A stretch of DNA of 64,000 nt, from positions 1 to 64,000 of the IMG/VR virus record IMGVR_UViG_3300033067_002502. One strand, 5' to 3'. Below the pieces are notes generated by a model. It saw only the letters and a program-made list of their open reading frames with translations. It ran no database searches and was not told the origin of the DNA. Each line of letters opens with the position of its first letter. Position 1 is the stretch's first letter. The position numbers and the translations under genes are program-made. This stretch comes from a virus. Its lineage: Duplodnaviria > Caudoviricetes. Shown here one piece after another: positions 22,203 to 43,125 of this stretch.

Positions 22203-23573
22203 ATGGCTTTTAATTTAAAGAAAAACGCACAAAATAAGAATAAAATTATTCTTCCAACAGAGACAAAGTTGCAAAATAATAATGATAAACTCAATTTGTC
22301 TCTAAAGCAAGATAAAACGGTTTCGCATTATGATGCTTTGTTAGATAAAGATAGAAGGCCTTATAATGGAACTGTTGTTACTCACGAAGCGATGCTTGAT
22401 GAAGTAAGAAAGAAAGCAGATTCTCCAGAAAAAACAACAGAAGGAAGACTAGAAGACGTTGACTCTCCTTTGTTTCCTCATAGGCAATTTGCAAACGGAG
22501 AAGATAAGTATCAAGTAGCTCCTGTAAATGCAATGACTCATGCTTTTGATAGAAAGTATAGAGATGCTTTTTCTAAAGTAAATAAAGGAGCAGATACTGC
22601 TTTTTGGGATAAGTATGTAGGAGATCAACTTGATGGTAAAATGACGAAAGTTCCTTCGAATTTGCCTCAGTCAGGAAGTCAGCTTCATGATAATCCAGAA
22701 AGATTTGGAAAGCTTAAAAACATTCCTTTAGATCCAAGTGCTATTGTTAATAGAAAGAATTTTGATGTAGGTCTTGAAATTAGCCCTATGCACGGTTTTG
22801 CTAGTGGTGAAAAAGGAATAACTATTGCAGAAGACATAAGAGTTTCTTTGGCTTCTATAAAGAATGCAGATAGTTTACTTTTTGGTATATACTTAAAAGC
22901 TGCAAAAGAAAATAGAGAAATAACAGATATAGAGAAAGAAATTATTGATGGCATTAATAAAGACAAGTCTAGTCTTATGATTTCTTTAGCTCAAAATTCT
23001 CCATTAATTCCTCCTCCTAATCCAATTAATCAAAACCCAAGTGAATTTGATGAGACTGGTGCTGATTTTGAAGACAATAACCCTAATTCAGACATAAATG
23101 GGAATGAAGTAGAATGGGGATCTCAGTCTGGTTTTGATAGAGATTCTTATGAAAACGGATTGCCACCTGAAACTGAATTTCCGCAAAATTTAGAAAATAG
23201 TAATTCAATAGGCGATTCCTCTTTTGATCCTAATATGGGGATTGAGCCTGATGTTGCAGATGGTCATGGAAACGATCCAATAGATTCTCCTTTTGGATTA
23301 GATGACAGAATTCCAACTCCAGAAGATGCTGATAGAGATATGGGTATTGGAAAATATTCACAACCAGAGCCAGAGAATGTTGACCAATTTGGGGGATCTG
23401 ATTCTTCAGTAAATCCTACTGAAACAGTAAATCCTACTGAATCTAAACCGTCTTATTTTGATTTAGGAACAAGTCCTTCAGTAGATCAGCCTTTTCGCTC
23501 AAATTTAGAAAAGAAAAAATTGAATATTGATAAAACAATTCCACAAGAAGGAATAGATGAAACTCCCTTTTAA
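22203..23573 (+). CDS. putative head internal/core protein
   Basis: Starts MAFNLKKNAQ; T-x-E-x2-L repeats; acidic Pro-rich tail. Confidence 0.6.
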   Translation: MAFNLKKNAQNKNKIILPTETKLQNNNDKLNLSLKQDKTVSHYDALLDKDRRPYNGTVVTHEAMLDEVRKKADSPEKTTEGRLEDVDSPLFPHRQFANGEDKYQVAPVNAMTHAFDRKYRDAFSKVNKGADTAFWDKYVGDQLDGKMTKVPSNLPQSGSQLHDNPERFGKLKNIPLDPSAIVNRKNFDVGLEISPMHGFASGEKGITIAEDIRVSLASIKNADSLLFGIYLKAAKENREITDIEKEIIDGINKDKSSLMISLAQNSPLIPPPNPINQNPSEFDETGADFEDNNPNSDINGNEVEWGSQSGFDRDSYENGLPPETEFPQNLENSNSIGDSSFDPNMGIEPDVADGHGNDPIDSPFGLDDRIPTPEDADRDMGIGKYSQPEPENVDQFGGSDSSVNPTETVNPTESKPSYFDLGTSPSVDQPFRSNLEKKKLNIDKTIPQEGIDETPF

Positions 23574-24030
23574 TTTATCTAAACAAGCAAGAAGAGGATC
23601 TGATCCACCAGAAGCATTTAATCAAGGGATTAAAGATCCTTATGGACTTAAAAGAGGAAAACCAGGTAGCGGAGAAGGTTCTGATTTAACAAGACCAGGA
23701 AGCGTTGGTTTTTCAAATCAAGCACCTAGTTCTGGTGGAGGTATTTCCGATAATAAAGAATGGCCCTCTGATAGACCTTTTTTTGATGATGAAGATGGAT
23801 ATCCAAAAAGAGATAACGGTACTGGAATTGTAACAGATCATGGATTACTTTTGCATGATGATGCAGAAATTGGACAAGGATCTGGACAAGGTAGCGGAGA
23901 TGCGGTTCTTGGAGTTAATGAGACAGTAACAAGAGAAATGACGAATAATAGAGACAGGCCATTTAATCTAACAAATAATAACAACCCTTTGAAAGAAGTA
24001 AGGCCTAGGCTTAGAAGTTTAAATTTTTGA
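23557..24030 (+). CDS. hypothetical, putative head internal protein
   Basis: Starts MKLPFNLSKQAR; G/D-rich. Confidence 0.6.
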   Translation: MKLPFNLSKQARRGSDPPEAFNQGIKDPYGLKRGKPGSGEGSDLTRPGSVGFSNQAPSSGGGISDNKEWPSDRPFFDDEDGYPKRDNGTGIVTDHGLLLHDDAEIGQGSGQGSGDAVLGVNETVTREMTNNRDRPFNLTNNNNPLKEVRPRLRSLNF

Positions 24031-24042
24031 AAGGATTAGAAA

Positions 24043-24624
24043 ATGAAGATGAAAGTTGTTTCCACAATGAAGGGTAAATTAACAATACCTTATGTTTACG
24101 GTTCATATAAAGCAGGAGAAGAAGTATCTCTTACAAAAGATCAAGTAGAAAGTTCTGATATCCAAAATTTATTAAATATAGGTCTTATTGAATTTGTTGA
24201 TAAAAAAGACAAAAAGGCAGAAGAATCTCTTATTTCTTATAAAAATTTAACAAAAAGTATTTTGTCTTTTTCTTGGGGATCTACAATCCGTCCTTCTCAG
24301 ACGTTCTTTTTATCTAATAAAAATGCAGAATCCACAGAAGTTGAACAATTAGTTAAGGCTGGTAAGATGTGTAAGTCTTTGAAGTCAGATAAAGAGACGG
24401 ATAAAAAAATAAAGAAAGTTTCTGAAAAACAACCTTATATTGTTAATCCAAATAAAGAAAAAACAGAAAAGATTGTTTCAAAAGATGTTCACATTCATGT
24501 TCCTAAAAACATAAAAGAATCTTCTCTTTTTGAAGATTCTGAAGAATTAGAATTTGTAGATATAAAGCAAGCAAAAGAAAGGCTTGCCAAAACAAAAAAA
24601 TCTTTACAGGATAAGAACGGTTAA
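24043..24624 (+). CDS. hypothetical protein with two ~50-aa repeats
   Basis: AAAGGA RBS; two modules ending S-x2-[IV]-x2-L-x3-G. Confidence 0.65.
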   Translation: MKMKVVSTMKGKLTIPYVYGSYKAGEEVSLTKDQVESSDIQNLLNIGLIEFVDKKDKKAEESLISYKNLTKSILSFSWGSTIRPSQTFFLSNKNAESTEVEQLVKAGKMCKSLKSDKETDKKIKKVSEKQPYIVNPNKEKTEKIVSKDVHIHVPKNIKESSLFEDSEELEFVDIKQAKERLAKTKKSLQDKNG

Positions 24625-25229
24625 TGAAAGAGATTATTTCTAAAAACATATCTCCTAAGTGGTTAAAAAGGAGAAAAAAAGATGAAGCCAAGCTTACGCA
24701 GTATTGGTCTAACATGTATCCTACTGACTATGCAAAAGATATGACTAGAGATTATTTGGCATTTAGTAATGGATTGATAAAAATGGCGAACGATGCTGTT
24801 GATGTTGTTTTTAGCGGAGAATTAAGGCAAACCGAAGACGGTTTTGTTTTTGTTGACGTTCCTGATTCTGTATTTGAAGGTTTGTTGCCTTTGTTGGGAG
24901 AAAACGCAGAACGCCCTCCAAAAAATGAAAAACATTATAATGATATCGGAGCGCATATTACTGTAATGAAAAGAAGCGAAGTAGAAGATAATAATATTAA
25001 ATTCAAACATGTTGGTAAAAAAGTTTCTTATCAAATGAAAGGCGTTAAAAAGGTTGAAAATCCTGACGGATGGGATTCTATGGAATCTGTTTGGTTTATT
25101 TCTATTGAATCTCCAGATCTACAAAACATAAGAAGAATGTACGGTCTTTCTCCTACTATAAAAGATCATGATTTTCATATTACTCTTGGAGTTAAGAGAA
25201 GAATCTTGGAGGATTTAGATAATGCTTAA
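24624..25229 (+). CDS. 2H phosphoesterase with N-terminal extension
   Basis: Two HxT motifs: GAHITV and DFHITLG. Confidence 0.85.
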   Translation: MKEIISKNISPKWLKRRKKDEAKLTQYWSNMYPTDYAKDMTRDYLAFSNGLIKMANDAVDVVFSGELRQTEDGFVFVDVPDSVFEGLLPLLGENAERPPKNEKHYNDIGAHITVMKRSEVEDNNIKFKHVGKKVSYQMKGVKKVENPDGWDSMESVWFISIESPDLQNIRRMYGLSPTIKDHDFHITLGVKRRILEDLDNA

Positions 25230-26216: not shown

Positions 26217-26218
26217 TA

Positions 26219-26596
26219 ATGGAAAAAACAGCTCAACAGTCTCTTCTTGATATTCTTTTACAAATCATGCCGGCTTTACAAGATGTAAAGTCTCGAATGA
26301 TAAATGGAAAAGATCCAGCTAATGAAACTCTTTATTCTGTGTGGGATAAATCAAATAAATCTGCTAGTAGAAAATTTATAAAACCAACAAACGTTGCATC
26401 AAAAGATATTAAAAAAATGGAGACAGCTGGATTAATTGAAGATCAAGGTAAGTATCTTAAAGTAACAGAAAAAGGGGCTCAAGCTATAAAAGTTATGATC
26501 TTAAATGACAATTCTTTTGCTCTTGGAAAAAAAGCACACAATGCAAAAGATTTAGGATGGTACGAAAGATTAAAAAATGAAAACTATTTATCTTGA
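26219..26596 (+). CDS. hypothetical protein with winged-helix-like segment
   Basis: Starts MEKTAQ; KKMETAGLIEDQGKYLKVTEKG resembles a wHTH wing. Confidence 0.6.
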   Translation: MEKTAQQSLLDILLQIMPALQDVKSRMINGKDPANETLYSVWDKSNKSASRKFIKPTNVASKDIKKMETAGLIEDQGKYLKVTEKGAQAIKVMILNDNSFALGKKAHNAKDLGWYERLKNENYLS

Positions 26597-26942
26597 AATT
26601 TTTTATAGTAAAGAAAAGAAGCACCAAAAAGTTATTAATAATCATTTTTGGTTTGATATTGATGAGAAAGAACTAAAAACATTTTCAGGGGGTTCTTTGA
26701 AGTTTAAGTATGATATAAACGATAATAAAATGAAACCTTATGTAGAAGATTTAGATATTCTAACATATGAAAACAAATCAAATAAAGAAAAAATACTATC
26801 ATGGATTTCTTCCAATAAAGATTTTGTTTCCATCAATGCAGAATATTCAAATTCTCAAAATATTGCTATAGACGTAGAAGACGAAAACGAATTAACTGTT
26901 ATTGATATGATTGAAAGAGTTGGGTTTAGATATGGAAATTAA
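26577..26942 (+). CDS. hypothetical protein
   Basis: ORF within the operon. Confidence 0.6.
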   Translation: MKTIYLEIFYSKEKKHQKVINNHFWFDIDEKELKTFSGGSLKFKYDINDNKMKPYVEDLDILTYENKSNKEKILSWISSNKDFVSINAEYSNSQNIAIDVEDENELTVIDMIERVGFRYGN

Positions 26943-27897: not shown

Positions 27898-27911
27898 GGA
27901 GTTTGGATTAT

Positions 27912-29300
27912 ATGGAAAAAACAATTGAATTATTAGTATCCATTGCCGAACAGTTAGACAGTCAAGGTCTTACTGTTTTGGCTTCTAGAGTTGATTCTGT
28001 TGCTAATAATGCATTAAGCATCAAAACAGCTCAGTATGTAGGAATGCAGGGCTATGCAATTAGAAATTCGAGATGCTGGGGTAATTGTTATCGAAAGAAA
28101 AGATTAGATTCTCCAACAAAATCAGCTCAAATAGTTTGGACTGAATGCCATAAAGAATACGTTGAGTCTATCAATAATGACGGTTCTAAGTGGGATAAAT
28201 ATGCTGATTCTCAAGAATCTTTTGTTAAAGTAGCTTCTATTCCTCAAAGTAAATATCTAGAGATAGATAAGCAGATTTGCAAAGTTATTGATGAAAAGGT
28301 TGCTTCAGGTTTAGATTTAGGCAATGCTATTTTTGCTTCAATTGATGACATATCTAATGCTCCTCATGAACAAATTATTGCATCAAGTAACGAATTACTT
28401 GATATAGCTACAGATCTTGTTGCTAATCCAGTATTGGCAGAAAAGTTAGCTGAAGCAGCTAATGATTTTACAAAAGAAGCTGGATTCTTTGACGGTATTG
28501 GTAGAGCGGTTGGAAATAAATGGCAAGGATTTCAACTTGACAGAAATATAGGAAGCGGTATTGGAGATATGGATAAATCTATAGCTCTTGTTATGCAATC
28601 TCTTACTAATTTAGAATCATCAAAACAGAAATTACAAAAATATCTTACAAATTTCAAACCAAGAACTCCTCAACAAAAACAATCTATAGATAATTCTTTA
28701 CAAGGAATGTTCGATCTTAAGCTTGTCAGTCCTTTAGCAGTTAAGAGGAAATGGGAATCAGTAAAGCAAACTATTAATTTAGGAATGCAGTCTTCTCCTC
28801 AACAACAAGCCCCTCAACAACAACAGCAAGCCCATCAACAAACACCTCAGCAAATGCCTTCAAACGTTTCAGGCCCTATGGGAGGATGGTCAGCTCCTAC
28901 TTTTGCATCTAATAAAGTAGAAATAAAGTTAGCAGATGTTGAAGAATATTATAGTGGATTTAATCCAAAAACAAAATCTGTATTTGAAGAAAAGGGACCA
29001 GTTTCTCCTGTTTTTAATCCAAAAACAAAATCTGTATTTGAGGAAAAAGTAGAGCAGGAAATTAATTCAATTAAGAAAAAACAAACACCACTCCCTACAA
29101 GCGGAGTAGTTCAGAATGAAGTAAATTCAATAGATCCGGTAAATTTTGAAAAAGTATATAGAGCAATAAAATCTAATAAAAAAGTAAAAAATTTATCTGA
29201 CGAAACAATTGGTTATTTAGAAAGTTTAGATGATAATCAGTTTTTACAAATTAAAGAGTGGCAAAAAAGAAGATGGGATGCATCTAAAAGAACAAAGTAA
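27912..29300 (+). CDS. putative head internal polyprotein
   Basis: KTAQ, KVAS (x2), KEAG and KLAD motifs; Cys-containing segment; Q-rich linker. Confidence 0.6.
   Translation: MEKTIELLVSIAEQLDSQGLTVLASRVDSVANNALSIKTAQYVGMQGYAIRNSRCWGNCYRKKRLDSPTKSAQIVWTECHKEYVESINNDGSKWDKYADSQESFVKVASIPQSKYLEIDKQICKVIDEKVASGLDLGNAIFASIDDISNAPHEQIIASSNELLDIATDLVANPVLAEKLAEAANDFTKEAGFFDGIGRAVGNKWQGFQLDRNIGSGIGDMDKSIALVMQSLTNLESSKQKLQKYLTNFKPRTPQQKQSIDNSLQGMFDLKLVSPLAVKRKWESVKQTINLGMQSSPQQQAPQQQQQAHQQTPQQMPSNVSGPMGGWSAPTFASNKVEIKLADVEEYYSGFNPKTKSVFEEKGPVSPVFNPKTKSVFEEKVEQEINSIKKKQTPLPTSGVVQNEVNSIDPVNFEKVYRAIKSNKKVKNLSDETIGYLESLDDNQFLQIKEWQKRRWDASKRTK
28959..29047 (+). repeat. short intragenic direct repeat (FNPKTKSVFEEK x2)
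   Basis: tttaatccaaaaacaaaatctgtatttga at 28959 and 29013. Confidence 0.85.
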
Positions 29301-29394: not shown

Positions 29395-30057
29395 ATGAAG
29401 TTTATTACAAATAGGATTTCAACGGGTAAATCAACTGGTTTCAGTGATTTTGTTACAAAGCTTGCAGCAAGCAATGCTTCTTTAGCAAAAACAGCTCAAG
29501 TTTCTAATTTTGGAGACAAGCAAGCTAAGCCTTTTGGAGCAAAAGAAGAAGGTAAAGAAACAGAGCCAAAGAAAGATGCAAAGAAAGAAGGAGAAGAGAA
29601 AGAAGCTTGTGAAACCTCTTGTGCTTCTAACGAGTCTTCCGTAAAAACAGCTAAAGAAGATAAGAAAGAAACAGCAAAAGATGGTGTAATGAAAGTTAAA
29701 ATGCAGAAAATGGACCCAGTTGGCGGAACGAATACAGGAAAACCAGGCGGAGAGAAGAAGAAAGCTTCTAATTCTGATGTAGATCCAGCAAACAAGGGAG
29801 TAACTCATAAGGTTGACGAATGCTGCGGAGCTCCAACATCTAAAACGGATGACGGAAGCGAATCTCCTAAGAGTGAAAAGAAAACAGAAAAGAAAGAAGT
29901 TACTAAAGTTGAAGTTAAAGCAGAAGAGAAGAAAGCTTCTGTTCATAAGTGGGTAAAAATTTCTAATTTAGATTCTAAGACAAAGAATGCATGGAAGGCT
30001 TATTGGAAGAATCTTTATCCTACAGAATATGTCGATGCAATGTTTGCTGATAAGTAA
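29395..30057 (+). CDS. putative head core/scaffold-like protein
   Basis: AAGGAG RBS; K/E-rich; KTAQ and KKAS motifs; C-terminal YWKNLYPTEYVDAM. Confidence 0.6.
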   Translation: MKFITNRISTGKSTGFSDFVTKLAASNASLAKTAQVSNFGDKQAKPFGAKEEGKETEPKKDAKKEGEEKEACETSCASNESSVKTAKEDKKETAKDGVMKVKMQKMDPVGGTNTGKPGGEKKKASNSDVDPANKGVTHKVDECCGAPTSKTDDGSESPKSEKKTEKKEVTKVEVKAEEKKASVHKWVKISNLDSKTKNAWKAYWKNLYPTEYVDAMFADK

Positions 30058-31654: not shown

Positions 31655-33309
31655 TGGAAATGACTTCAGGACCATCTTCTGCTAATCTAACTCATCAAAT
31701 GGCTGAAATACCTAAACAGCAAGTTGATAAGGCAACAAATCTTATTTCTACATCTAATCCAATGATAGATCCAAATGCATCAAAAGGAACTAATGTTTCT
31801 TTTTTAAATAGTTTTATGGATTCTCTTAATAATTCAATAGATGCTGCTAATGGCAAAAACGATACAGCTATTGACATGAAAGAGGATTTAAGTATGAATC
31901 CTGAACCTTTATTAGCTTCTTCTTATTTTGATCTTTCTAAATTTTCTCAGATGAATCAACAAATGCAGACATCTCCAATGGAAAATCCTACAACACCAAT
32001 TGAAAATCCTTCATCTTCAATGGAAGATCCTATGGCAAATGAAATGGGTAACAATATTGGAACTAAATTCAGAAATCCTGAAGAACTTAAATCTCTTTTA
32101 GATCAAGGAATGGAAAACCATGATTTAAAAAACGAATTAATTAGATCTGCTCCAGAAGATCAACAGCAAACAATAAGCGATTCAATTAAAAAATATTATG
32201 ATCCACAAACTTCTGAAGGCGAAAGGTTTTCTATAGTTGGAACAATTTATGATATTATTAATGGAGAAGGAGATAACACAGTGCCAGCAGAATATATTCA
32301 AGCATCAGTAGATGCTCTTATAAAAGAATCTAATGAGAAAATTAAACAATTTGCAAAGAAAGCTGCTTCTGTTAAGTCTGTAAAGAAGGCAAAATCTTCT
32401 TATAATTTAAAGAAGCAAGCTCAGCAGTTTGCAGGAACAGGTCATACAGAATTTGTAAATTTCGGGCCAAATGAAAAAAGAATGCTTCCTTATAGCAATA
32501 CTGGTTTAGTTGGAAGCGATTGGCATGTTTGGCTTAGAGCAAGAGATCATAATTTTATATTTGACGACCATGCTGTAGATTTTGACACGTTTTGGCGTGG
32601 AAATATCATGGACAAGTACAGTCAACCCTATCGAAATAAAAAAGGAGAATGGGTTGGAGGTTATTTAAATAAGAGATTTGAAACAGATCATAACATTCCT
32701 GAGGGAAACAATCTTCAACTTCTTCCAGGACAACTTCGTCGTCCTTATCTTCCTCAGTTTGCAACTATGGAAGCTCGTATGGAAGATTCTAGAAGTAAGC
32801 TTGCAAAAGATAGAGGTTATAGTCCAACAGATACTGATGCCGAAGCTTATAATTGGCATACCGCTTCCTCTCAAAAAAAAAAAGTAATAGCATCTGATGA
32901 CTTGGGAATCGGATCTCTTCCTTCAATAGAGCAAACAAAGCCTCTTGGAGGGGTTAAGCAATGTCCATCTTGTGGCTCTGATAACAGTGCTACGGAAATT
33001 ATTTGCGTTAATTGTAAAGCTCCTATTCCAAAAGGAACTAGAACTTATAACCAGAAACAAAGAGACAAAAAAGGCAAACAAAAAGGAGCTAACCCCCATG
33101 AGGTAGTATTTATGGGAGCTCCTGTTAATAGGCAATTTGTTCCTGGGTTTGGAAGGCCAATAGAGGCTCAAATTATTCCTTCTAATAAAACAATACCATT
33201 AGTTAATCCGATAAAGAATAAGAAGCTTATTTCAGATGATGATGCTGAATTTGTTGACGATCATCATCTTTCTGATGTAGAGAATTCTGCTAATGAACTA
33301 GGCTTATAA
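31654..33309 (+). CDS. putative head protein with Zn ribbon
   Basis: YFDLSKFSQ, YNLKKQAQ, KKVIAS; CPSC...CVNC. Confidence 0.65.
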   Translation: MEMTSGPSSANLTHQMAEIPKQQVDKATNLISTSNPMIDPNASKGTNVSFLNSFMDSLNNSIDAANGKNDTAIDMKEDLSMNPEPLLASSYFDLSKFSQMNQQMQTSPMENPTTPIENPSSSMEDPMANEMGNNIGTKFRNPEELKSLLDQGMENHDLKNELIRSAPEDQQQTISDSIKKYYDPQTSEGERFSIVGTIYDIINGEGDNTVPAEYIQASVDALIKESNEKIKQFAKKAASVKSVKKAKSSYNLKKQAQQFAGTGHTEFVNFGPNEKRMLPYSNTGLVGSDWHVWLRARDHNFIFDDHAVDFDTFWRGNIMDKYSQPYRNKKGEWVGGYLNKRFETDHNIPEGNNLQLLPGQLRRPYLPQFATMEARMEDSRSKLAKDRGYSPTDTDAEAYNWHTASSQKKKVIASDDLGIGSLPSIEQTKPLGGVKQCPSCGSDNSATEIICVNCKAPIPKGTRTYNQKQRDKKGKQKGANPHEVVFMGAPVNRQFVPGFGRPIEAQIIPSNKTIPLVNPIKNKKLISDDDAEFVDDHHLSDVENSANELGL

Positions 33310-36300: not shown

Positions 36301-36630
36301 GCTATACCAGAAATAGGTGTTGATATAGAAGTTGATGGAGAGAAGTGGCATTCATCTGTTGAAGATAAACAGAGTGATAAAGAAAGAGACGTTGTTCTTG
36401 CTAAGTTAGGTTGGAGGGTTCTTAGATTTACAGAGCAAGCAATTGGAGAGCAGCTAGGAAAAGTTCAAGAAGTTATAAAGAAAGAAGTATACGACGCTGC
36501 TAAAGAAAAAAAATCTCTTTCAAAGAAGGCACAAGTAAGTCAAGAAATGAAATATGAAATAGAAAACTGTTTTGATGGATGTGAAATTTCAAGATGTTTA
36601 CCATTAGATAATGAGGTTAAAGAAGGATGA
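33328..36630 (+). CDS. portal protein with intein and C-terminal DUF559-like nuclease domain
   Basis: Position between terminase and protease; ENEPKVAAGIDFY, LGDVY, VLNPDWIEV, YGESLLRR, IKWNDLRL, ISAQTLLE are portal-like. Confidence 0.8.
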   Translation: MAENQGKPIKMQLPTKKVSATILASKGNVIKDGNAANLNNYAGSTVLTFPITKNSQFAGSGANVTMTQPMFFSPLHTPQNWQIASKRKEVYQWARHYYENEPKVAAGIDFYSQFPINGMKLTCKKKSVMRFYERLVEKVDLMYWLRMISHQRFLLGDVYVMTEIECPHCKGSGIDKESGENCNHPDGTIGRVTVLNPDWIEVMKTPISQEPQIVLLPDEEIQKIIQTKQPKFLYDQIPDNIKMQIMAKKPILLSNRVTSHIKHGGVPYGTYGESLLRRLFTSLAYKTKLMTANWIVAERLILPVRIVKVGSDERPADDEAIADMSSQLSAVANDPNLTIVTHNNVEYEWYGACQDNLTEILTYNGWKLFKDISKDEIVSTYNKDSGFMQWQQIQKYHEYDFKSTETLKMIDFKSRGVDIRVTPNHRMLVQRDDKWIEVLSQEVKHGDKFLNNINWQGYFPEVLQYKDSPLSHLVLDDYLEFVGYYLSEGGVKRETKRNLSVDKQIQACSVGQNRNSPIYSSMKDVVELVYPNFSETKDDRGNDTFCNFTINNVKIARYMAEEFGSKSSEKKIPTWVLNLPKNKLKIVYDAMMAGDGDLRNDNIKPRYRYTTTSKNLSNAFSEIVLKLGYFSSTCLEKAKNERCNDIYRIYWSEDRVETPFEIRNQHISRTDYDGKVYCVTVPNGFIITRRNGRITVQGNSGKIHNINAELEFVGKEILDGLMLNQTLLNGEMAGYNSAQVGVEVMIRRLESWRNELAQWIEKNIFLPVAKMQGFIDEEETKEFNETTYLYPRIKWNDLRLRDNTNQLQMYLQMQQSGLISAQTLLEEFDLDYDLEVERIREEQVQAMQNGMLAGGQGAGGGGGGMGGGGGGGGSPGGAAGGMDMGMGGGGAPGMDGGMGGAPGMDGGMGGAPGGAPGGMGAAAGGSPQKIYRKGKGPKEEEVAPVRQTTLQLTKPESKMYRTLNAMSLPFRLFAQYKQPVPNDSNFYLMDFAIPEIGVDIEVDGEKWHSSVEDKQSDKERDVVLAKLGWRVLRFTEQAIGEQLGKVQEVIKKEVYDAAKEKKSLSKKAQVSQEMKYEIENCFDGCEISRCLPLDNEVKEG
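34384..35424 (+). mobile_element. portal intein (347 aa, LAGLIDADG)
   Basis: YGA|CQDNLTEILTYNGW, VTPNHRM, GYYLSEG, MAGDG, YDGKVYCVTVPNG...VQGN|S. Confidence 0.92.
35995..36065 (+). repeat. 30-bp tandem repeat in the Gly/Met-rich portal linker
   Basis: ggagctccaggaatggatggaggtatgggc x2 plus a partial copy. Confidence 0.9.
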
Positions 36631-37070
36631 GCAATCTAATTTATAATCTTAATAAGATAGCAGGTCGTAAGAGAATTAAAGATCGAGGTATTCGGTGGGA
36701 AGAGATGTATAGAGATAGATCTCGTCCTCAAAAAGAAAAGTTCGAAAAACTTTTAGGACCAGGATCTTATTATCGTTGGGAAGGTCATGATTATACAACC
36801 AATTCCATTTATTATGTTGTTGTGGGGCCTTCTGTACAAAGGCATGTTGGCAAGATGTTTTTTGCTGGAATAAAGAAAATTCCAATTGAAGAATTTACAA
36901 AAGATCCAGATACAAAAACATACAGTCCTTATGGAGAATATTTTCCTACAATAAAAGGTGCTTTAATCTACGCAAGTCAAAGATGGGGAACAAAAGTTCC
37001 TAAAAATCAAATTCCTTATACCAAAGATACTTTAGCAAATGTAGACATTCCAGAACACGTTAAGGCTTAA
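36627..37070 (+). CDS. hypothetical protein
   Basis: ATGA overlap; starts MSNLIYNLNKIAG. Confidence 0.7.
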   Translation: MSNLIYNLNKIAGRKRIKDRGIRWEEMYRDRSRPQKEKFEKLLGPGSYYRWEGHDYTTNSIYYVVVGPSVQRHVGKMFFAGIKKIPIEEFTKDPDTKTYSPYGEYFPTIKGALIYASQRWGTKVPKNQIPYTKDTLANVDIPEHVKA

Positions 37071-37085: not shown

Positions 37086-37117
37086 TAGGATTTGCTGTAA
37101 TATGTTTGAATATAAAT
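37086..37117 (+). promoter_or_regulatory. AGG-N18-GAA promoter of the protease/capsid operon
   Basis: TAGG-N18-GAATATA; identical spacing at several other intergenic sites. Confidence 0.65.
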
Positions 37118-37146
37118 GTTGATATAAATTAGGAGATTGAATTCGA

Positions 37147-40100
37147 ATGTTTGAAAAAAGCTCTAAAACTGAAACCAAAATGCATATAGAAGCCCTTTAT
37201 TTACCTTCAAGAGGAGCTTGGGGTCTTTATAACACTTCTCGCATAAAAGTAGCTTCTATTGATAAAACAAAGAAAACAGATCTTGGAGGATTTGATCTAA
37301 AAGCTGCTGTTGAAAAAAATCCAGACAATTTATTTGTAAAAGTTTTTGCTATAAAAGCAGATGAAGTTAATGACAATGGAGATTGTTTTAATGAGTCTGA
37401 ATTAAAAAAAGCAGCTCATACTTTTATTGGAGTTCCTGTTTTCGTAAATCATCAAAACGATAACGTAGAGAACGCAAGAGGCAAAGTTATTCATGCTTGG
37501 TATGATGATGATTCAAGAGGGATATATTGCATTAATATGGTTGATAGAGCTGCTTATCCTCGCCTTGCTAGAGGTATTGAGGAAAATTATATAAACGGAA
37601 CTTCGATGGGAGCCCAAGTCGGTTATTCTCTTTGTTCTATTTGTCATAATAAAGCTCATACGGCGGATGAATTTTGTTCGCACATAAAAAACGGTAAGAA
37701 TAGAAAAATTAGCGGAAGTTATGAATGCAAATATCACGAAAGTCCTTGTGGATGCGAAGATAAATGCCCATTAGATAGTAAGAAAAAATCAGAAACAAAA
37801 GAACACCTTCATAAAGATGCTAAAGTTTTTGAATGGAATTATGATATAAAATTTATAGAAGATAGTTTTGTTGTAAATCCAGCTTGTCACGACTGTTTAG
37901 TTTGTGATATTCTTAATGTAGAGGCAGTTAAGAGTGCTACATCAAACAGTATATATGAATTAAAGAAAGTTGCTTCTGCTTTAAGTGAGTCTGTTAGTAA
38001 AATGACAGATGGTTCTTTAGAAAAGACTGCTGGTAAAACAGAAGTTGAAGCTTTGACTCAAGCTATGAATCTTATGGAACACGTTGCTCGTTCTATGATG
38101 GCTCAAAAACAACAGATTCAACTTGATTATGTAAGCGATCTTGTAGAGCAACTTGCAAAGGTTCAATCTTTACAAGATGAACTTGTTGAAATGGGATACG
38201 CTCAATTGCCTTCTCCTCCAGAACAACAAATTGCTCTTGGGAATATAATGCAAAGCCCTGCAGGTCAATCTTCTCAGCAAGTTATGAATCCTTCTCAAGT
38301 TGGACAACAGCCTCAACAAGCAGCTCAAAGTTTAAGTCAACCGCCTTCCTCTGCAAGTCCTTCCTCCGCAAGCCTTGGAGATGTTGGAAGTGTTACTAGA
38401 CCAACATTTACTGGAGCTTCTTTGGAATTAAAGAAGGAATTTATTAAACAGTCATCGAATATGAGCGAGAAGCTGAATTTATTAAGTACAGCATTGCGTG
38501 GTTCTTTGGTCTTGTTAGCTCAAAGGAGAATGAAAGTGTCTAATTCTGAAAATATTGCTGAGTTTTCTAACGGCAATCTAAAAGTAACCGTTGCTAACGT
38601 TGAAGGCGACGGTTTAGTTGTAGGTAAATGGAAAGATAGTAAGCTTGTAAGCTGGGCTTCTCTTGATGAAATGGGCGATGAGATTAAAAGTCTTGCCGCT
38701 TCTAATTTACAAGAAGCTGCAAAAGTTATATTTAGTCAATATCAAAAAGAATCAGGAGTTAATATGTCTGCAAATAATAATACAAAAGTAGCATCTGGAA
38801 ATTCGTCTCAACAAGAAGTTACAACGCAAGCTCAACTTGATAAAGCTGGTCCTCTTCATCCAAGAGAAGAAAAATATCCAACAGTTACAACTCAAGCACA
38901 ACTTGAAGGCGGTGGAGAGATTAAACCAGTTAACAATACTACTTCTGACGACAATCAGCTTCGCAAAGATACTGCTCCTGAAGTTACTACGCAAGCTCAA
39001 CTTGAAGCATTAAGTGGAGATCTTGCTAGATGGAACGATTTCCCAGAAGTTATTACTCAAGGTCAATGGGACGAAATGAGTCGTAGAGTTTCTTCTTCTT
39101 TAGGAAGCGATTATACAGATCAAATTACTCAAGCTCAATTAGAAAGTTTGCAAAAGTCTCACAAATGGTCTCCTCCTGAAACAATAACTCAAGATCAACT
39201 TAATTCACAGAAGAAAGTTTCTCCAGAAGGAAAATCAGATTCTGAACGTTGGGCATCTTCTGCTAAGAATCTTATTAAAGCAGCAAGTTCTGCTGTTTCT
39301 GATGCAATCGCAGGATATGGTCTTTCTCCTTCTGATGTATCTAAAGCAGTAAATAAAATAAATGCATCCCCTTATGCTGTTATTAAGGCTTCGTATCTTT
39401 CTCTTATAAACGGATCTCCTGTAAAGATTCAAGCAAGGCTTGCAGAGCGTAATCGTAATAACTATTTTGCTAAGACAGCAAAAGTCTCTTCTGCAGTAGA
39501 TCCTGTAAATGGTCTTCTTGCCGCAATGGGAGACAATATTGGTTATTTGAAAGCAGAAGATTTTGTTGCTGCTGTCAAGTTTGTTGTTAATGATAAAAAA
39601 GCATTTGCATCTGCAGAGTCTTCTGCTCAAGTAAAAATTGCTTCAAATAATAATGATAGCGTAGAAGTTGTTGATACAGACAGTCTTTTCCGTCAAGCTT
39701 TTGCAGAAATGGATCGTCCTGAAGATGGTCTTTATAAGATATGCGGAACTCTTACAGAAGATGTAAAAACAAATCCTTCAGATAAGACTGCGTTTATGAA
39801 TTCTTTATTCTCTTTTGCAAAAACTCAAATTGACGTTCCTTTTGTTATTGCAAAAGTTGATTTAGATAAAGAAGCTGGCGTTTTTGAAATTGAATGTAAA
39901 GAAGAAAGATGCTGTTCTTCAGAAGAAAAAACAGCTTTCGCTTCTGTATTGAATTCTCAAGTTAAGACAGCAACACAAAAACCACAAGAAAAGAAAGAAG
40001 AAAAAGTTGCTCGCTCTTCTAATAGAGCAAATCTTGTTAAAGAAGCTCAGATGATGGGCGGTCAAATGGGAGGAGGAGCAGGTGGTGCTGGTCCTGCTGG

Positions 40101-43100
40101 TGGAATGGGAACAATGCCTGGAGCAGACGCTGGTGGAATGGGTCAGCCTCCTACAGAAAATCTTGGTGGTCAGCCTGGAGAACTTGGTGGAGAAGATGGT
40201 TTAGATGATATGGGTGGAGAAGATTCTGATATGCAACCAAAACCACCTGGTACAATTTGTCCAGTTTGCGGTTCTGGAGACGTTGATGTTCTTGATGGAA
40301 AAGGTAAATGCGGAAATTGTTCTGCAGAATTTTCTTATAAAGTTGATATTGAAATTACAAAATATCCTGGACTTCTTGATGATGGAAAAGAAGGCGGAGA
40401 AGAAGATGGTCTTGGTGGACCTGGCGAAGAAACAGAAGGTGCTGGAGAAGGGTTTGCTCTTCCTGAAGGCAACGAGCCTGCAAGTATGCCAGTTGCTGCT
40501 ATGACTCAAATTAAACCAGAAATGATTAAGAAAGCAAAAGCAGATGCTCTTGCTAATGGATCAACATGGTCATTGGGAAGTATTAGTCCTTATACTGGAT
40601 CTAATAGCGTTATGAAGATTAGTGATAATAAATTCCTTTGTCTTGATACAGGCGGAACTTACGAAGTTCACGCTGCTGGTGTTGATAACAAGGGCAGCAA
40701 AGCAGTATTTGCTGAATGGCGTTTTGAAGCTAAACCTCTAGTTGGAAATTGCGAAAGTTGCAGACGTAAGAAAAACGCATTTTCTTCAGCTCTTAAGTCT
40801 CACGGCATGAGCGATGAAGTTTTTGATTCAATGCTTCTTCTTGATAAAGGTAAAACAGTTCTTGCTATGAAAGAAAAAGGATTATTTAGCACTGTAAAAA
40901 CAGCTTCTAATAAATCTTCTATTCTTCAAGGACTTAAGAAGACATCTTCTTTCGGAAGCAAATTCCCAATTGAAACTTGTAGAGAAAAAATTGCTCGTAA
41001 ATTTGGACAGAATGCTCTTGCTTTGAGTGGTCCATGCGAAGGAGCAAATTTAGCTGATTGTGTTTGTAAGAAGCTTTCAACTGCTGGCGTTTACAGCAAC
41101 AACCTTGCTGTAAAAGTTGCAAGCGTTTGGGCTAACGAAGATCAAATGGTTCAATGTGTTGAAGATTTTGTTCGTAGTAAGAAATTCTCTATGAAACAAT
41201 CATGTTTCATATGCGATCAACTTAAGACAAAGTATGCACAATTTGATGATAGTGCTGCAGAAGAGATTGGTGGGGAGTCTTCAATGCCTATGAGCGGACA
41301 AGATAATTCTCAAGCTACAGAAGAACCTTCTAATGATGATGGTTTTGGAGATGTAGATCCATTTTCTTCTGAAGATAGTTCTAGCGAAGAAAGCAGTCAA
41401 GAGACAAGCGATCCTTCTATGAGCGGAGAGCCTGGAATTGAAGAAACTCCATCTATTGAAGGAGGAGAAGGAACTGATTCTCCTTTAGGATTAGGAGAAG
41501 AAACAGAAGTATCTAGTCCTATGACAACTCCTACAGCAATGCCTCCTATGGAAGGAAATAAGCCTGGAGTAGGAATGGTAACATTTGAAATACCTCTTGA
41601 TGCTCTTGAACAACTTGATAAAGCTATAGATATTGCTAAGGGAGAGAATCCAGCAGAAGAAGCACATCATCAAGAGCCATTAAGCGGAGCGGCTGTTATT
41701 GATATGCCTTTGGAATCTGTTGAAGGTCTTGATCAAGCAGCAGATCAAGTTCTTGATACGGCTGTTGATGCAACAAAAGAAGTAGGAGAATCTATTGGAG
41801 AAGCAATGAACTCTACCGAAACTCCTATGGAAGAAGAATCTGTTGGTGAAAAAGAAGTTGAACCTTCAAGTGAAGAATCTCATTCAGAAGGAGGAGAATC
41901 TTCTGAATCTCCAGAAGTAAAAGAAGAAAGCTTTGATAAAACAGGAGAAGAACCTTCTGAAGAAAGCAACAAGGATTCTTTTATGTCGCAAGCACAAGCA
42001 TCAGCTCAAGTATTCAAGAAAGGTAAGATTGGAGGAACTGGCGAAATCAATTTAGATTTAAGTCATGTTATGAAAGTTCTTGCAAGTCAAGGTAAAATTG
42101 CTAAAGAAGTATCTTTAGAAAATGTTCAAGACAATAAAGATATTGGAAAAGTTAGCGATGGAAAGACAATGGGTAATGAAGAAAAATTCGATGCTAAAAA
42201 ACCAGAAGTCTTTACTGGTGATGCAACGATGGGTGGAGAATCAGAAGCAGGATATAACAATGATAAACCAAAGGCTTCTTTTGAATCTGGCGGAGCAGAA
42301 ATGGGTGATGAAAAAGCACAAGGGTATACAGCTGAAAAACAAAATACAGCAACAGGCGGAGATAAGGGTCAAGGAAACCACACCTCGTCTAGCAAAGCAA
42401 GAATGTCTTCTTTAGCAGAAAGAATTGTTAATGCTTCTGTAAAGAAAACAGCAAATGATAAGAAATTAGAAAATGCAGCACCTATTTCTGAAGATGGAGA
42501 TGTAAAGCCATTTTCAGCAAATAAAGATAATCCAAAGAGCGGAAATCCTATTAAGCCTTTTGAAGAAGGACAAAAAGTAGGAAAAGTTGACGCTGGAGAT
42601 TCTAGTTTTATGGGTCATGAAAAAGAAACATTAACAAGCGTACCAAAGGAAGAAAATTCAGCCCCTAGCATTCCTGCTGGCGGAGGAAAGAATCCTAAGT
42701 ATGATAATAACGAAAAGAATACGCCGGAAAAACAAACGGCACATAAAGGAACAGTAATCTCTAGTGGAGATACAGAGTCCTTGGCGGTTAAAAAAGAGGC
42801 TGCAACAAGGGTCGCAGGTCGTAAGTTAAAAGCTGGCATGATATCAATAGATAAGCTAGCATCAGAAATCGAGAAACTTTCTCGTTATGATACTTCCGAT
42901 TTGAGAGACATTGAAACAGCTCTTTTCGGAGCTTCCAAGAAAGGACTTGACACTGTTGCAAAGGGTTCGGAAAAACCAATAGTTATTTCCGAAAAGAGCA
43001 ATCAAAGAAAAATTACATCGGAATTGAAGGATTCTTTACAGAGTTTGTTTACTCTAGATAAGAGAAACGTTCTTGCTCAGGACGATCCAACAGTCGAGAT

Positions 43101-43125
43101 CAAGAAAAGTAATTATAGATCGTAA
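37147..43125 (+). CDS. capsid maturation protease/scaffold polyprotein (1992 aa)
   Basis: N-terminal NDNGDCF, VFVNHQ, ARGKVI, TSMG, CSICHN, EDSFVVNPA resemble HK97/assemblin-type proteases with a Zn insert; long low-complexity remainder; lies upstream of the capsid genes. Confidence 0.8.
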   Translation: MFEKSSKTETKMHIEALYLPSRGAWGLYNTSRIKVASIDKTKKTDLGGFDLKAAVEKNPDNLFVKVFAIKADEVNDNGDCFNESELKKAAHTFIGVPVFVNHQNDNVENARGKVIHAWYDDDSRGIYCINMVDRAAYPRLARGIEENYINGTSMGAQVGYSLCSICHNKAHTADEFCSHIKNGKNRKISGSYECKYHESPCGCEDKCPLDSKKKSETKEHLHKDAKVFEWNYDIKFIEDSFVVNPACHDCLVCDILNVEAVKSATSNSIYELKKVASALSESVSKMTDGSLEKTAGKTEVEALTQAMNLMEHVARSMMAQKQQIQLDYVSDLVEQLAKVQSLQDELVEMGYAQLPSPPEQQIALGNIMQSPAGQSSQQVMNPSQVGQQPQQAAQSLSQPPSSASPSSASLGDVGSVTRPTFTGASLELKKEFIKQSSNMSEKLNLLSTALRGSLVLLAQRRMKVSNSENIAEFSNGNLKVTVANVEGDGLVVGKWKDSKLVSWASLDEMGDEIKSLAASNLQEAAKVIFSQYQKESGVNMSANNNTKVASGNSSQQEVTTQAQLDKAGPLHPREEKYPTVTTQAQLEGGGEIKPVNNTTSDDNQLRKDTAPEVTTQAQLEALSGDLARWNDFPEVITQGQWDEMSRRVSSSLGSDYTDQITQAQLESLQKSHKWSPPETITQDQLNSQKKVSPEGKSDSERWASSAKNLIKAASSAVSDAIAGYGLSPSDVSKAVNKINASPYAVIKASYLSLINGSPVKIQARLAERNRNNYFAKTAKVSSAVDPVNGLLAAMGDNIGYLKAEDFVAAVKFVVNDKKAFASAESSAQVKIASNNNDSVEVVDTDSLFRQAFAEMDRPEDGLYKICGTLTEDVKTNPSDKTAFMNSLFSFAKTQIDVPFVIAKVDLDKEAGVFEIECKEERCCSSEEKTAFASVLNSQVKTATQKPQEKKEEKVARSSNRANLVKEAQMMGGQMGGGAGGAGPAGGMGTMPGADAGGMGQPPTENLGGQPGELGGEDGLDDMGGEDSDMQPKPPGTICPVCGSGDVDVLDGKGKCGNCSAEFSYKVDIEITKYPGLLDDGKEGGEEDGLGGPGEETEGAGEGFALPEGNEPASMPVAAMTQIKPEMIKKAKADALANGSTWSLGSISPYTGSNSVMKISDNKFLCLDTGGTYEVHAAGVDNKGSKAVFAEWRFEAKPLVGNCESCRRKKNAFSSALKSHGMSDEVFDSMLLLDKGKTVLAMKEKGLFSTVKTASNKSSILQGLKKTSSFGSKFPIETCREKIARKFGQNALALSGPCEGANLADCVCKKLSTAGVYSNNLAVKVASVWANEDQMVQCVEDFVRSKKFSMKQSCFICDQLKTKYAQFDDSAAEEIGGESSMPMSGQDNSQATEEPSNDDGFGDVDPFSSEDSSSEESSQETSDPSMSGEPGIEETPSIEGGEGTDSPLGLGEETEVSSPMTTPTAMPPMEGNKPGVGMVTFEIPLDALEQLDKAIDIAKGENPAEEAHHQEPLSGAAVIDMPLESVEGLDQAADQVLDTAVDATKEVGESIGEAMNSTETPMEEESVGEKEVEPSSEESHSEGGESSESPEVKEESFDKTGEEPSEESNKDSFMSQAQASAQVFKKGKIGGTGEINLDLSHVMKVLASQGKIAKEVSLENVQDNKDIGKVSDGKTMGNEEKFDAKKPEVFTGDATMGGESEAGYNNDKPKASFESGGAEMGDEKAQGYTAEKQNTATGGDKGQGNHTSSSKARMSSLAERIVNASVKKTANDKKLENAAPISEDGDVKPFSANKDNPKSGNPIKPFEEGQKVGKVDAGDSSFMGHEKETLTSVPKEENSAPSIPAGGGKNPKYDNNEKNTPEKQTAHKGTVISSGDTESLAVKKEAATRVAGRKLKAGMISIDKLASEIEKLSRYDTSDLRDIETALFGASKKGLDTVAKGSEKPIVISEKSNQRKITSELKDSLQSLFTLDKRNVLAQDDPTVEIKKSNYRS

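What the first reader, a model, noticed from the sequence alone, without database searches (positions are those of the whole stretch)
22203..43125. Candidate protease-tagged head-cargo system: recurring K-x-A-[QS] and [FY]NL-x-K-x-A motifs
Seen: almost every protein between terminase and capsid carries a short motif near its N-terminus or at a domain boundary. Examples: MAFNLKKNAQ (22203), PFNLSKQAR (23557), LIKMAN (24624), MEKTAQ (26219), FRFAQ (26932), IKTAQ/VKVAS/TKEAG/IKLAD (27912), LAKTAQ/KKKAS (29395), VKKAS/VKIAE (30872), YFDLSKFSQ/YNLKKQAQ (31654), ITKNSQ/SKKAQ (portal), YNLNKIAG (36627), and more than 10 copies in the protease polyprotein (IKVAS, KKVAS, EKTAG, TKVAS, AKTAK, VKIAS, VKTAT, VKEAQ, VKTAS, VKVAS, TKYAQ, KKTAN). 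Sequence composition often switches right after the Ala (VKEA|QMMGGQMGG, TKYA|QFDDS). Distant genes also carry it (lysozyme LLKEAD, 63309 FFKFAE). Known: T4 internal proteins have a ~10-aa capsid-targeting leader cut after Glu by gp21, and phiKZ gp175 cuts many head proteins at a short motif. Inference: this phage uses an analogous Lys-x-Ala code to load and release a library of enzymes and polyprotein fragments in the head for injection.
Basis: partly seen in the sequence, partly recalled or inferred. Interest (0 to 1): 0.85.

Follow-up and report, generated by a model that had tools for sequence, protein, structure and literature searches.

The report
Lys-x-Ala head-protease cutting code
In this giant phage, a relative of Bacillus phage G, the head proteins carry a short Lys-x-Ala signal that most likely marks where the phage's own head-maturation protease cuts them; this is a new specificity for a known phage mechanism, and no cut has been measured.

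Summary
K-x-A-[Q/S/G] occurs 31 times in the 17 proteins from 22.2 to 43.1 kb, against 8.7 expected (z 7.5). It sits at background level in the rest of the 170-kb contig. Reversed and near-miss motifs are flat, and local-composition shuffles change nothing. Without the 1992-aa protein the count is still 19 against 4.9.

Motif Lys and Ala are better conserved in orthologues than other Lys and Ala. Seven of the 17 proteins have a site in their first 60 residues (1.3 expected).

The enrichment recurs in the head genes gp4-gp21 of cultured Bacillus phage G. Of these, only portal and protease resemble window proteins. It also recurs in 89 diverse homologues of the 1992-aa protein (4.4-fold).

That protein starts with a protease domain of the T4 gp21 / herpesvirus assemblin fold, with invariant His102 and Ser153. 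Conserved sites bracket the fold.

Best reading (about 0.75): this is the protease's cutting code. It frees the protease, dices the polyprotein and trims leaders.

Loading and injection of an "enzyme library" remain untested, and only one tagged protein has a recognised enzyme domain. The capsid protein lacks the motif.

The scan has already noted the same code in other phage-G-like genomes. It is a new variant of a known kind.

The parts
37147..43125 (+). 1992-aa polyprotein with an N-terminal prohead protease followed by about 1700 residues of scaffold or core-like segments. It has 15 sites of the type K-x-A-[QSGNR]. About 10 of its K-x-A positions are conserved across the family.
   Evidence: PHROG matches: phrog_18299 (head maturation protease, 6e-11) and phrog_2774. 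There are 2442 homologues, most of the best ones 1500-2700 aa long. Family conservation of the sites against a 0.15 background is.
37279..37932 (+). Folded protease domain, about residues 45-262. His102, Ser153 (in G-T-S-M-G), Glu229 and Glu238 are invariant. It carries an inserted Cys163/Cys166/Cys177/His179 cluster.
   Evidence: AlphaFold2 model: pLDDT is high over 45-262 and below 50 at 1-42 and 264-300. VIA-align gives Z 10.0 to T4 gp21 (5jbl) and Z 7-8.9 to herpesvirus proteases. All top Foldseek rows belong to the same two families. Invariant columns come from 46 sequences.
37240..37257 (+). Predicted N-terminal self-processing site R-I-K-V-A36|S, in the disordered leader ahead of the protease fold.
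   Evidence: Ala36 is at least 90% conserved in alignment A1. 93% of 45 homologues have [KR].A within 3 residues. In about 50 of 90 homologues the site lies 63-70 residues before the catalytic His.
37927..38034 (+). Predicted release sites just after the protease fold: V-K-S-A264|T, K-K-V-A276|S and E-K-T-A295|G.
   Evidence: Conserved in relatives that share 45-48% identity. Family fractions are 0.93, 0.64 and 0.91. The segment has low model confidence.
38782..41241 (+). Conserved internal sites of the polyprotein: TKVA549|S, AKTA778|K, VKEA967|Q (followed by a Gly/Met-rich linker), IKKA1130|K, VKTA1253|S, VKVA1325|S and TKYA1364|Q (followed by an acidic Ser-rich tract).
   Evidence: Family fractions are 0.76-0.96. 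In the AlphaFold2 model of residues 690-1000, A778 lies at a helix end next to a loop, A832 lies inside a helix three residues from its end, A942 is in a disordered stretch, A955 and A967 are in a low-confidence helix, and A713 sits inside a confident helix.
22203..22232 (+). N-terminal tag M-A-F-N-L-K-K-N-A9|Q of the 456-aa protein encoded at 22203-23573.
   Evidence: GAGGA lies upstream of the ATG at 22203. The tag is conserved as FN[LF]KK(N)AQ in 5 orthologues.
23557..23592 (+). N-terminal tag M-K-L-P-F-N-L-S-K-Q-A11|R of the 157-aa protein.
   Evidence: PFNL[SL]K[QTI]AR is present in all 5 orthologues.
24624..24788 (+). 55-residue leader of the 2H phosphoesterase, ending L-I-K-M-A55|N. It contains a peptide of about 35 aa that is shared with the C-terminus of the 29395-30057 protein.
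   Evidence: Pfam 2H-SAK matches residues 93-193 (9e-15). Orthologues have K[LFI]A[SN] at the site. The shared peptide gives E 0.001 in a database of the head-module proteins only.
26219..26236 (+). N-terminal M-E-K-T-A5|Q of the 125-aa protein.
   Evidence: M.KTAQQS is present in 5 of 6 orthologues.
27903..28481 (+). Multi-site N-terminal region of the 465-aa protein, with sites at A43, A75, A111, A134 and A193.
   Evidence: IKTAQY, KSAQ and KEAG are conserved in 7-8 of 8 orthologues. The protein has 5 sites against 0.70 expected.
29395..30057 (+). Lys/Glu-rich 220-aa protein with sites at A34, A124 and A181. Its last 35 or so residues are the shared peptide.
   Evidence: Orthologues gain or lose extra K-x-A sites inside insertions.
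32401..32424 (+). Internal tag S-S-Y-N-L-K-K-Q-A256|Q in the 551-aa protein encoded at 31654-33309.
   Evidence: [FY]NL[KN]K[QE]A is present in all 12 orthologues, including those that share only 34-36% identity.
36520..36534 (+). Site S-K-K-A1068|Q near the portal C-terminus, 32 residues from the end.
   Evidence: The portal is identified by phrog_16240 (2e-36). SKKA[QN] is present in 10 of 14 orthologues.
36627..36665 (+). N-terminal tag M-S-N-L-I-Y-N-L-N-K-I-A12|G of the conserved 147-aa protein between portal and protease.
   Evidence: [FY][ND]L.K.[AS] is present in all 14 orthologues, while the residue between Lys and Ala varies.
43937..44827 (+). Major capsid protein. It has no K-x-A-[QSGN] site and no N-terminal extension.
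   Evidence: phrog_2522 at 5.5e-58. It is 48.6% identical to phage G gp27. Its only K.A is KEA|I at residue 125.

Best explanation
The K-x-A motif is the recognition and cutting signal of the phage's own prohead serine protease. The fuller form is Leu/Met at P5, Ile/Leu/Val at P4, Lys at P3, Val/Thr/Leu/Ile at P2 and Ala at P1, followed by Ser, Gln, Gly or Asn. The protease has the gp21/assemblin fold and forms the N-terminal domain of the 1992-aa protein.

Inferred sequence of events. The polyprotein and the tagged proteins co-assemble inside the procapsid. The protease frees itself at Ala36 and at Ala264, Ala276 or Ala295. It cuts the remaining 1700 or so residues at about ten conserved sites into fragments of roughly 40-250 residues plus a long acidic C-terminal part. 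It removes short [F/Y]-N-L-x-K-x-A leaders from the proteins starting at 22203, 23557 and 36627, and longer multi-site N-terminal regions from those starting at 24624, 27903 and 29395. It also trims the portal C-terminus.

What is shown: the motif statistics, its conservation, the protease fold and the position of the sites. What is inferred: that cutting happens, which bond is cut (after Ala as in herpesviruses, which I favour about 60:40, or after Lys as in HK97), and that the leaders serve as head-targeting signals.
For: - Enrichment is confined to the head module and survives composition controls.
- Motif Lys is conserved at 0.80 in orthologues against 0.46 for other Lys (p 7e-5). Motif Ala is conserved at 0.71 against 0.50 (p 0.006). 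The residue between them varies, and sites turn over inside insertion-rich linkers.
- Seven of 17 head proteins have a site in their first 60 residues, against 1.3 expected. Other genes show 5 against 4.9.
- Independent replication in phage G. Among gp4-21, K.A[QSGNA] occurs 30 times against 7.5 expected (z 8.8), and K.AS and KTA are the top unbiased patterns. gp24-64 are flat. Only portal, protease and capsid protein resemble window proteins.
- In 89 polyprotein representatives, K.A[QSG] occurs 1119 times against 255 expected, and every single protein exceeds expectation.
- The protease fold matches T4 gp21 (Z 10.0) and the assemblins (Z 7-8.9). His102 and Ser153 are invariant.
- Sites bracket the folded domain within disordered segments. 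The stand-alone phage G protease gp19 has the same layout: KIA|G at its start, and KVA|S and KIA|S after the fold.
- Precedent: T4 and phiKZ/SPN3US proteases cut at P3-x-P1 motifs, trim leaders and have redundant sites in propeptides (PMC9026906, PMC10052503). Herpesvirus pUL26 releases itself and the scaffold by cutting after Ala (PMC4498786).
Against: - There are no protein-level data for this phage or for phage G in what I could read. The 2020 phage G structure paper is not held.
- The major capsid protein and the 216-aa protein encoded just upstream of it (43157-43807, the position the decoration protein holds in phage G) lack the motif, whereas the capsid protein is a main substrate in T4, phiKZ and HK97.
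- One window site (A713) lies inside a confidently predicted helix.
- A910, A942 and A1905 are not conserved across the family.
- The homologous polyprotein of mycobacteriophage Cali shows no K/R-x-A enrichment, so the code does not apply to the whole protease family.
- Pfam gives no protease hit, and Foldseek E-values are weak (2e-3).
Confidence: 0.75

Rival explanations
1. The motif is an uncut docking signal. It would bind the scaffold core, the portal or the capsid interior and recruit proteins into the procapsid without any proteolysis.
For: The N-terminal bias and the conservation fit a targeting peptide equally well. In T4 the targeting and processing functions of the leader are separable (PMC9026906). 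A shared 35-aa peptide next to sites in two unrelated proteins suggests that docking modules exist.
Against: Docking does not explain 12 or more sites per polyprotein across 89 homologues. It does not explain why sites bracket the protease fold. It does not explain the Ser/Gln preference right after the Ala or the beta-strand-type residues between Lys and Ala, which are typical of protease subsites.
Confidence: 0.1
2. A host protease cuts the tags, as with host Prp, which trims ribosomal protein L27 and the capsid and scaffold proteins of phage 80alpha.
For: The long tag [FY]-N-L-x-K-x-A has the same N-L-x-x-x-A spacing as the Prp site N-L-Q-F-F|A (PMC5744158). Phage G infects a Firmicute.
Against: Prp needs Phe-Phe before the cut, and changing FF|A to AA|A blocks cleavage (PMC5744158). 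Here those positions are Lys and a variable residue. Most sites lack the Asn-Leu. The motif tracks a phage-encoded protease and brackets its fold. No Prp gene is found in the 170-kb contig, although the host is unknown.
Confidence: 0.05
3. The motif is a structural or compositional by-product, for example of Lys/Ala-rich helices, with no signalling role.
For: The head-module proteins are Lys-rich (9.5%) and many are poorly structured. One site sits in a helix.
Against: Local shuffles that keep composition in 10- to 40-residue blocks still give z about 8. The reversed motif and K..A, KA and K.G variants are not enriched, or only weakly (K..A z 2.0). Equally Lys-rich genes elsewhere are at expectation. 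Positional conservation exceeds that of other Lys and Ala residues.
Confidence: 0.05

Closest known systems
T4 prohead protease gp21 with its L/I-x-E| sites and the 10-residue capsid-targeting leaders of the internal proteins IPI-III and Alt (PMC9026906)
   Same: The protease fold is the same (Z 10.0 to 5jbl). The motif has the same P3-x-P1 form. Short N-terminal leaders end at the motif on otherwise unrelated proteins. The protease has sites at both of its own ends.
   Different: P1 is Ala and P3 is Lys here, not Glu and Leu/Ile; E.A is not enriched. The protease is fused to about 1700 further residues. The capsid protein carries no site. Targeting and injection are untested here.
phiKZ gp175 and SPN3US gp245, which cut at (S/A/G)-x-E| in many head and ejection proteins (PMC10052503, PMC9026906)
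   Same: All are giant phages in which many head proteins carry the motif. Propeptides contain several redundant sites. The portal is also processed.
   Different: The specificity differs, the lineage is unrelated (phage-G-like), and the capsid protein is not tagged.
Herpesvirus pUL26, a protease-scaffold fusion that cuts itself at the release site (YLQA|T or S) and the maturation site (VQA|S) (PMC4498786)
   Same: The protease fold is shared (Z 7-8.9). The protease sits at the N-terminus of a long assembly protein. Ala-Ser pairs occur right after the protease fold and further along the protein.
   Different: P3 is Lys rather than Val/Leu/Ile. There are ten or more sites rather than two. The third catalytic residue is probably an acidic one rather than His; this is inferred from the invariant Glu229 and Glu238. 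No nested scaffold gene was examined.
Bacillus phage G gp19 (300-aa protease) and its head genes gp4-gp21
   Same: The protease is 45% identical and the capsid protein 48.6%. The same K-x-A enrichment and N-terminal leaders are present.
   Different: In phage G the protease is a separate gene, not fused to a 1700-residue tail. The leaders read R-L-x-K-x-A rather than [FY]-N-L-x-K-x-A.

Membership tests
gp21/assemblin-fold prohead serine proteases | Protease fold shared by T4 gp21 and the herpesvirus assemblins | tested here: met
   VIA-align gives Z 10.0, rmsd 2.8 and 128 aligned residues to 5jbl. It gives Z 7-8.9 to seven herpesvirus proteases. The top 50 Foldseek rows are all from these two families, but with weak E-values of 2e-3 or worse.
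gp21/assemblin-fold prohead serine proteases | Conserved catalytic His and Ser | tested here: met
   His102 and Ser153 (in G-T-S-M-G) are invariant in 46 sequences. Their position in the active site was not checked by superposition.
gp21/assemblin-fold prohead serine proteases | Sequence-profile match to a curated protease family | tested here: inconclusive
   PHROG phrog_18299 (head maturation protease) matches at 6.4e-11. There is no Pfam hit at E 0.01 or better, and a profile search of PDB sequences gave only chance hits.
gp21/assemblin-fold prohead serine proteases | Gene lies between the portal and major capsid genes | tested here: met
   The portal is at 33328-36630, the protease polyprotein at 37147-43125 and the capsid protein at 43937-44827.
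T4-type capsid-targeting leader plus protease processing | Short N-terminal leader ending at the protease motif on unrelated head proteins | tested here: met
   Leaders of 5-12 residues are present on the proteins starting at 22203, 23557, 26219 and 36627 and are conserved in orthologues. The N-terminal bias is 7 against 1.3 expected.
T4-type capsid-targeting leader plus protease processing | Cut after Glu in L/I-x-E | tested here: not met
   E.A[QSG] is not enriched (7 against 7.1). The enriched motif has Lys and Ala instead.
T4-type capsid-targeting leader plus protease processing | Leader is needed for packaging, and the cargo is delivered to the host | not testable with these tools
   This needs reporter fusions and virion proteomics.
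Herpesvirus pUL26-type protease-scaffold fusion | Protease fused N-terminally to the assembly protein, with an Ala|Ser release site after the fold | tested here: inconclusive
   The fusion and the K-K-V-A276|S pair after the fold are present and conserved. The cut bond and a scaffold role for the tail are not shown.
Herpesvirus pUL26-type protease-scaffold fusion | Hydrophobic P3 (V/L/I-x-A|S) | tested here: not met
   P3 is Lys, or Arg in some relatives. The hydrophobic preference sits at P4 and P5.
Prp/L27-type host processing | Phe-Phe before the cut in N-L-Q-F-F|A | tested here: not met
   The corresponding positions are Lys and a variable residue. The requirement for Phe-Phe is described in PMC5744158.
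Prp/L27-type host processing | Prp protease available | tested here: inconclusive
   No PF04327 match in the 170-kb contig, which is estimated to be 34% complete. The host is unknown.

The most novel reading that the evidence does not exclude
The roughly 2000-aa protein would be a phage counterpart of herpesvirus pUL26. That is, a protease-scaffold polyprotein that cuts after Ala, frees itself, and dismantles a very long scaffold that helps build a giant capsid. The 7-residue [F/Y]-N-L-x-K-x-A leader would be a portable address label, sufficient to load any protein into megaphage heads and then be removed.
Probability: 0.3. Interest if true: 0.75.

Novelty: new variant of a known kind. Interest (0 to 1): 0.6.

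Why it matters
- Cutting motifs have so far been measured for only a few phage head proteases, and those of the gp21 type cut after Glu.
- A Lys-x-Ala code shared by phage G and a family of more than 2000 representative proteins (homologues of the protease domain, from giant and other large phages) would allow head-internal proteins to be predicted from sequence alone.
- It would tie a phage protease-scaffold fusion more closely to the herpesvirus Ala|Ser system.
- It would offer a short tag for loading proteins into very large capsids.
- It is testable now, because phage G can be grown.

Tried and rejected
- Pfam on all 17 head proteins gave no protease family. It matched only 2H-SAK, DUF192, and the portal, intein and DUF559 domains.
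- A profile search of PDB sequences with the protease alignment gave only chance hits to KRas and cadherin.
- A Foldseek search of the model of polyprotein residues 690-1000 against viral structures found nothing at E 0.001 or better.
- Atlas look-ups of the 456-aa and 551-aa tagged proteins returned poorly folded models and no usable relatives.
- The 2020 phage G structure and mass-spectrometry paper is not held. The 2025 phage G paper gives no cleavage data and none of its supplements is held.
- Literature searches found no K-x-A protease motif.
- No Prp family match was found in the contig.
- I tested whether mycobacteriophage Cali gp92 and gp93 share the code. They do not.
- I looked for a maturation-like site at a fixed distance from the polyprotein C-terminus. 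The median distance is about 37 residues, which is not clearly different from what the site density alone would give, so I dropped the point.
- The two 'distant gene' examples in the finding are at background level.
Full report
**What the region is.**
- The window is the first 64 kb of a 170-kb AT-rich contig from an uncultured giant phage, estimated at about one third of the genome.
- The large terminase is at 17927-22201 and the portal, which carries an intein and a DUF559 domain, at 33328-36630.
- A 1992-aa protein whose first 260 or so residues match head-maturation protease families lies at 37147-43125. The major capsid protein is at 43937-44827.
- The capsid protein is 48.6% identical to gp27 of Bacillus phage G. 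The protease domain is 45% identical to phage G gp19.
- The fourteen genes between terminase and portal have no PHROG function. Their only Pfam matches above the curated cut-off are a 2H phosphoesterase (24624-25229) and a DUF192 domain (26911-27897).

**Is the motif real?** Yes.
- In the 17 proteins from 22203 to 43125, K.A[QSG] occurs 31 times against 8.7 expected from within-protein shuffles (z 7.5). In the other window proteins it is 6 against 8.0.
- The reversed motif and the R.A, K.G, E.A and KA variants are not enriched; K..A is only weakly so (14 against 8.4, z 2.0).
- Across the whole contig only the 20-40 kb bins stand out.
- Shuffling inside 10-, 20- or 40-residue blocks, which keeps local composition, gives the same z of about 8. 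Without the polyprotein the count is 19 against 4.9.
- An unbiased scan of all three-residue gapped patterns puts L.K.A (16 against 2.5), VK.A (14 against 2.4), K.AS (17 against 3.8), NL.K and K.AQ directly behind the Gly/Gln low-complexity patterns.
- Codon use at the sites equals the background, so the signal is at protein level.
- The longer form [FY][ND]L.K occurs five times against 0.3 expected. A broader search for [FYLIVM][ND][LIFM].K.[AS] found the [FY]-type tag with Ala or Ser in place only in this module.

**Conservation.**
- The module is syntenic in IMG/VR relatives.
- In orthologue alignments, motif Lys residues are kept in 80% of sequences against 46% for other Lys (p 7e-5). Motif Ala residues are kept in 71% against 50% (p 0.006).
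- The residue between Lys and Ala varies freely. Examples are KVAS, KAAS, KFAS and KTAG at polyprotein site 34, and KIAS, KLAS and KMAS at site 830.
- Insertions in linkers bring extra K-x-A sites with them, as in the 29395 protein.
- The leaders FNLKKNAQ, PFNLSKQAR, MEKTAQ and YNLNKIAG, and the internal YNLKKQAQ, are conserved even in orthologues of 34-54% identity.
- Seven of the 17 proteins have a site in the first 60 residues (1.3 expected). Other genes show 5 against 4.9.

**Independent replication.**
- In phage G, gp4-gp21 carry K.A[QSGNA] 30 times against 7.5 expected (z 8.8). The best unbiased patterns are K.AS and KTA. gp24-gp64 are flat.
- Apart from portal, protease and capsid protein, these phage G proteins show no similarity to those of the window.
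- Several phage G proteins start with leaders such as MKRLISKTA|A and MSKKISRLKKTA|L.
- A search of 1.8 billion representatives found 2442 homologues of the protease domain. Most of the best are 1500-2700 aa polyproteins.
- In the 89 homologues of at least 1400 aa, K.A[QSG] occurs 1119 times against 255 expected, and every one exceeds expectation.
- The logo is Leu/Met at P5, Ile/Leu/Val at P4, Lys at P3, Val/Thr/Leu/Ile at P2, Ala at P1 and Ser (3.1-fold) or Gln at P1'.

**The protease.**
- An AlphaFold2 model of residues 1-300 is confident over 45-262 and disordered at 1-42 and 264-300.
- Its best structural match is T4 gp21 (Z 10.0, rmsd 2.8, 128 residues), followed by herpesvirus assemblins at Z 7-8.9. 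Foldseek lists only these two families, with weak E-values.
- His102, Ser153 (in G-T-S-M-G), Glu229 and Glu238 are invariant in 46 sequences. So is an inserted cluster of Cys163, Cys166 and Cys177, with His179 nearly invariant.
- The conserved sites Ala36, Ala264, Ala276 and Ala295 bracket the fold within the disordered segments.
- Phage G gp19 has the same layout as a separate gene.

**The rest of the polyprotein.**
- Against 45 homologues, ten K-x-A positions are shared by 76-96% of sequences, compared with a background of 15%. These are A36, A264, A295, A549, A778, A967, A1130, A1253, A1325 and A1364.
- VKEA967 is followed by a Gly/Met-rich linker and TKYA1364 by an acidic Ser-rich tract. 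Both switches are conserved.
- In a model of residues 690-1000, A778 lies at a helix end next to a loop, A832 lies inside a helix three residues from its end, A942 is in a disordered stretch, and A955 and A967 are in a low-confidence helix. A910 lies in a hairpin loop and A713 inside a confident helix.
- No separate scaffold gene is recognisable between portal and capsid protein. A scaffold or core role for this tail is therefore plausible but remains an inference.

**Mechanism.**
- The pattern matches what is known for T4 and for phiKZ/SPN3US: a P3-x-P1 motif, short leaders on unrelated internal proteins, redundant sites in propeptides, and self-processing of the protease (PMC9026906, PMC10052503).
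- The specificity differs, because those enzymes cut after Glu.
- The Ala-Ser pair and the protease-assembly protein fusion recall herpesvirus pUL26, which cuts at YLQA|T and VQA|S (PMC4498786). There, however, P3 is hydrophobic.
- I cannot assign the cut bond. After Ala fits the assemblin precedent and the strong Ser/Gln preference at the next position. After Lys would fit an HK97-like cut, with Leu/Met two residues before it.
- Two unrelated proteins share a peptide of about 35 residues (KW.K...YW.N.YPT.Y). It lies before the LIKMA|N site of the 2H phosphoesterase and after the EEKKA|S site of the 29395 protein. This would suit a docking module that is released by cutting, but that is speculation.

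**Limits.**
- No cut has been measured.
- The capsid protein and the 216-aa protein encoded just upstream of it lack the motif.
- The Bxz1-type mycobacteriophage Cali has the same gene layout. Its gp93 is 1286 aa, is annotated as a tape measure, and starts with this protease, but it shows no K/R-x-A enrichment.
- The claim of an injected enzyme library rests on one tagged enzyme. The DUF192 protein has no motif-type site outside its fold. The two tagged proteins looked up in the Atlas have low-confidence models there.
- Host Prp cuts N-L-Q-F-F|A, which has the same N-L-x-x-x-A spacing as the long tag. It needs Phe-Phe, which is absent here (PMC5744158), and no Prp gene is in the contig.

**Earlier notes of this scan** describe the same K-x-A code in other phage-G-like genomes. 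My tests on this window, on phage G and on the wider family agree with them.

**Verdict.** This is a new specificity variant of the known prohead-protease and targeting-leader system. It is widespread in phage-G-like giant phages and can be tested in phage G.

Noticed in passing
window 48447-63000: Tail and fibre proteins are very poor in Lys (2.2-2.6%, against about 9% elsewhere) and rich in Ser, Thr and Gly. The reason is unknown.
   Followed up: partly
L002:8152-10008 and the same position in L003-L014: Relatives carry an extra gene of about 580-635 aa between the 147-aa gene and the polyprotein. It has no counterpart anywhere in the window's 170-kb contig.
   Followed up: partly
window 24657-24752 and 29947-30051: A peptide of about 35 residues (KW.K...YW.N.YPT.Y..M..D) is shared by the N-terminal leader of the 2H phosphoesterase and the C-terminus of the Lys/Glu-rich 220-aa protein. 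In each it is separated from the rest of the protein by a K-x-A site (E 0.001 in a small database). It is conserved in 10 orthologues.
   Followed up: partly
window 37633-37683 (polyprotein residues 163-179): An invariant Cys163/Cys166/Cys177 cluster, with nearly invariant His179, is inserted in the protease domain. It looks like a zinc site that is absent from T4 gp21.
   Followed up: no
homologues P0003, P0022, P0023, P0028 and others: Some polyprotein homologues match the protease domain in two stretches that break near residues 152-161, close to the catalytic Ser. This suggests inteins inside the protease.
   Followed up: partly
L022:8905-12765 (Mycobacterium phage Cali gp93): The gene annotated 'tape measure' sits just upstream of gp94 and the capsid gene and begins with this protease domain. 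It is more likely a protease-scaffold polyprotein.
   Followed up: partly
window 38800-39220 (polyprotein residues about 555-690): There are six copies of a short (V/I)-T-(T/E)-x-Q-L repeat. It is conserved as VITEKQL in the family consensus.
   Followed up: no
window 33328-36630: The portal gene carries an intein with LAGLIDADG traces (about residues 375-683) and a C-terminal DUF559/Vsr-like nuclease domain (residues 951-1053). The nuclease lies behind a Gly/Met-rich linker and just before the SKKA|Q site.
   Followed up: no
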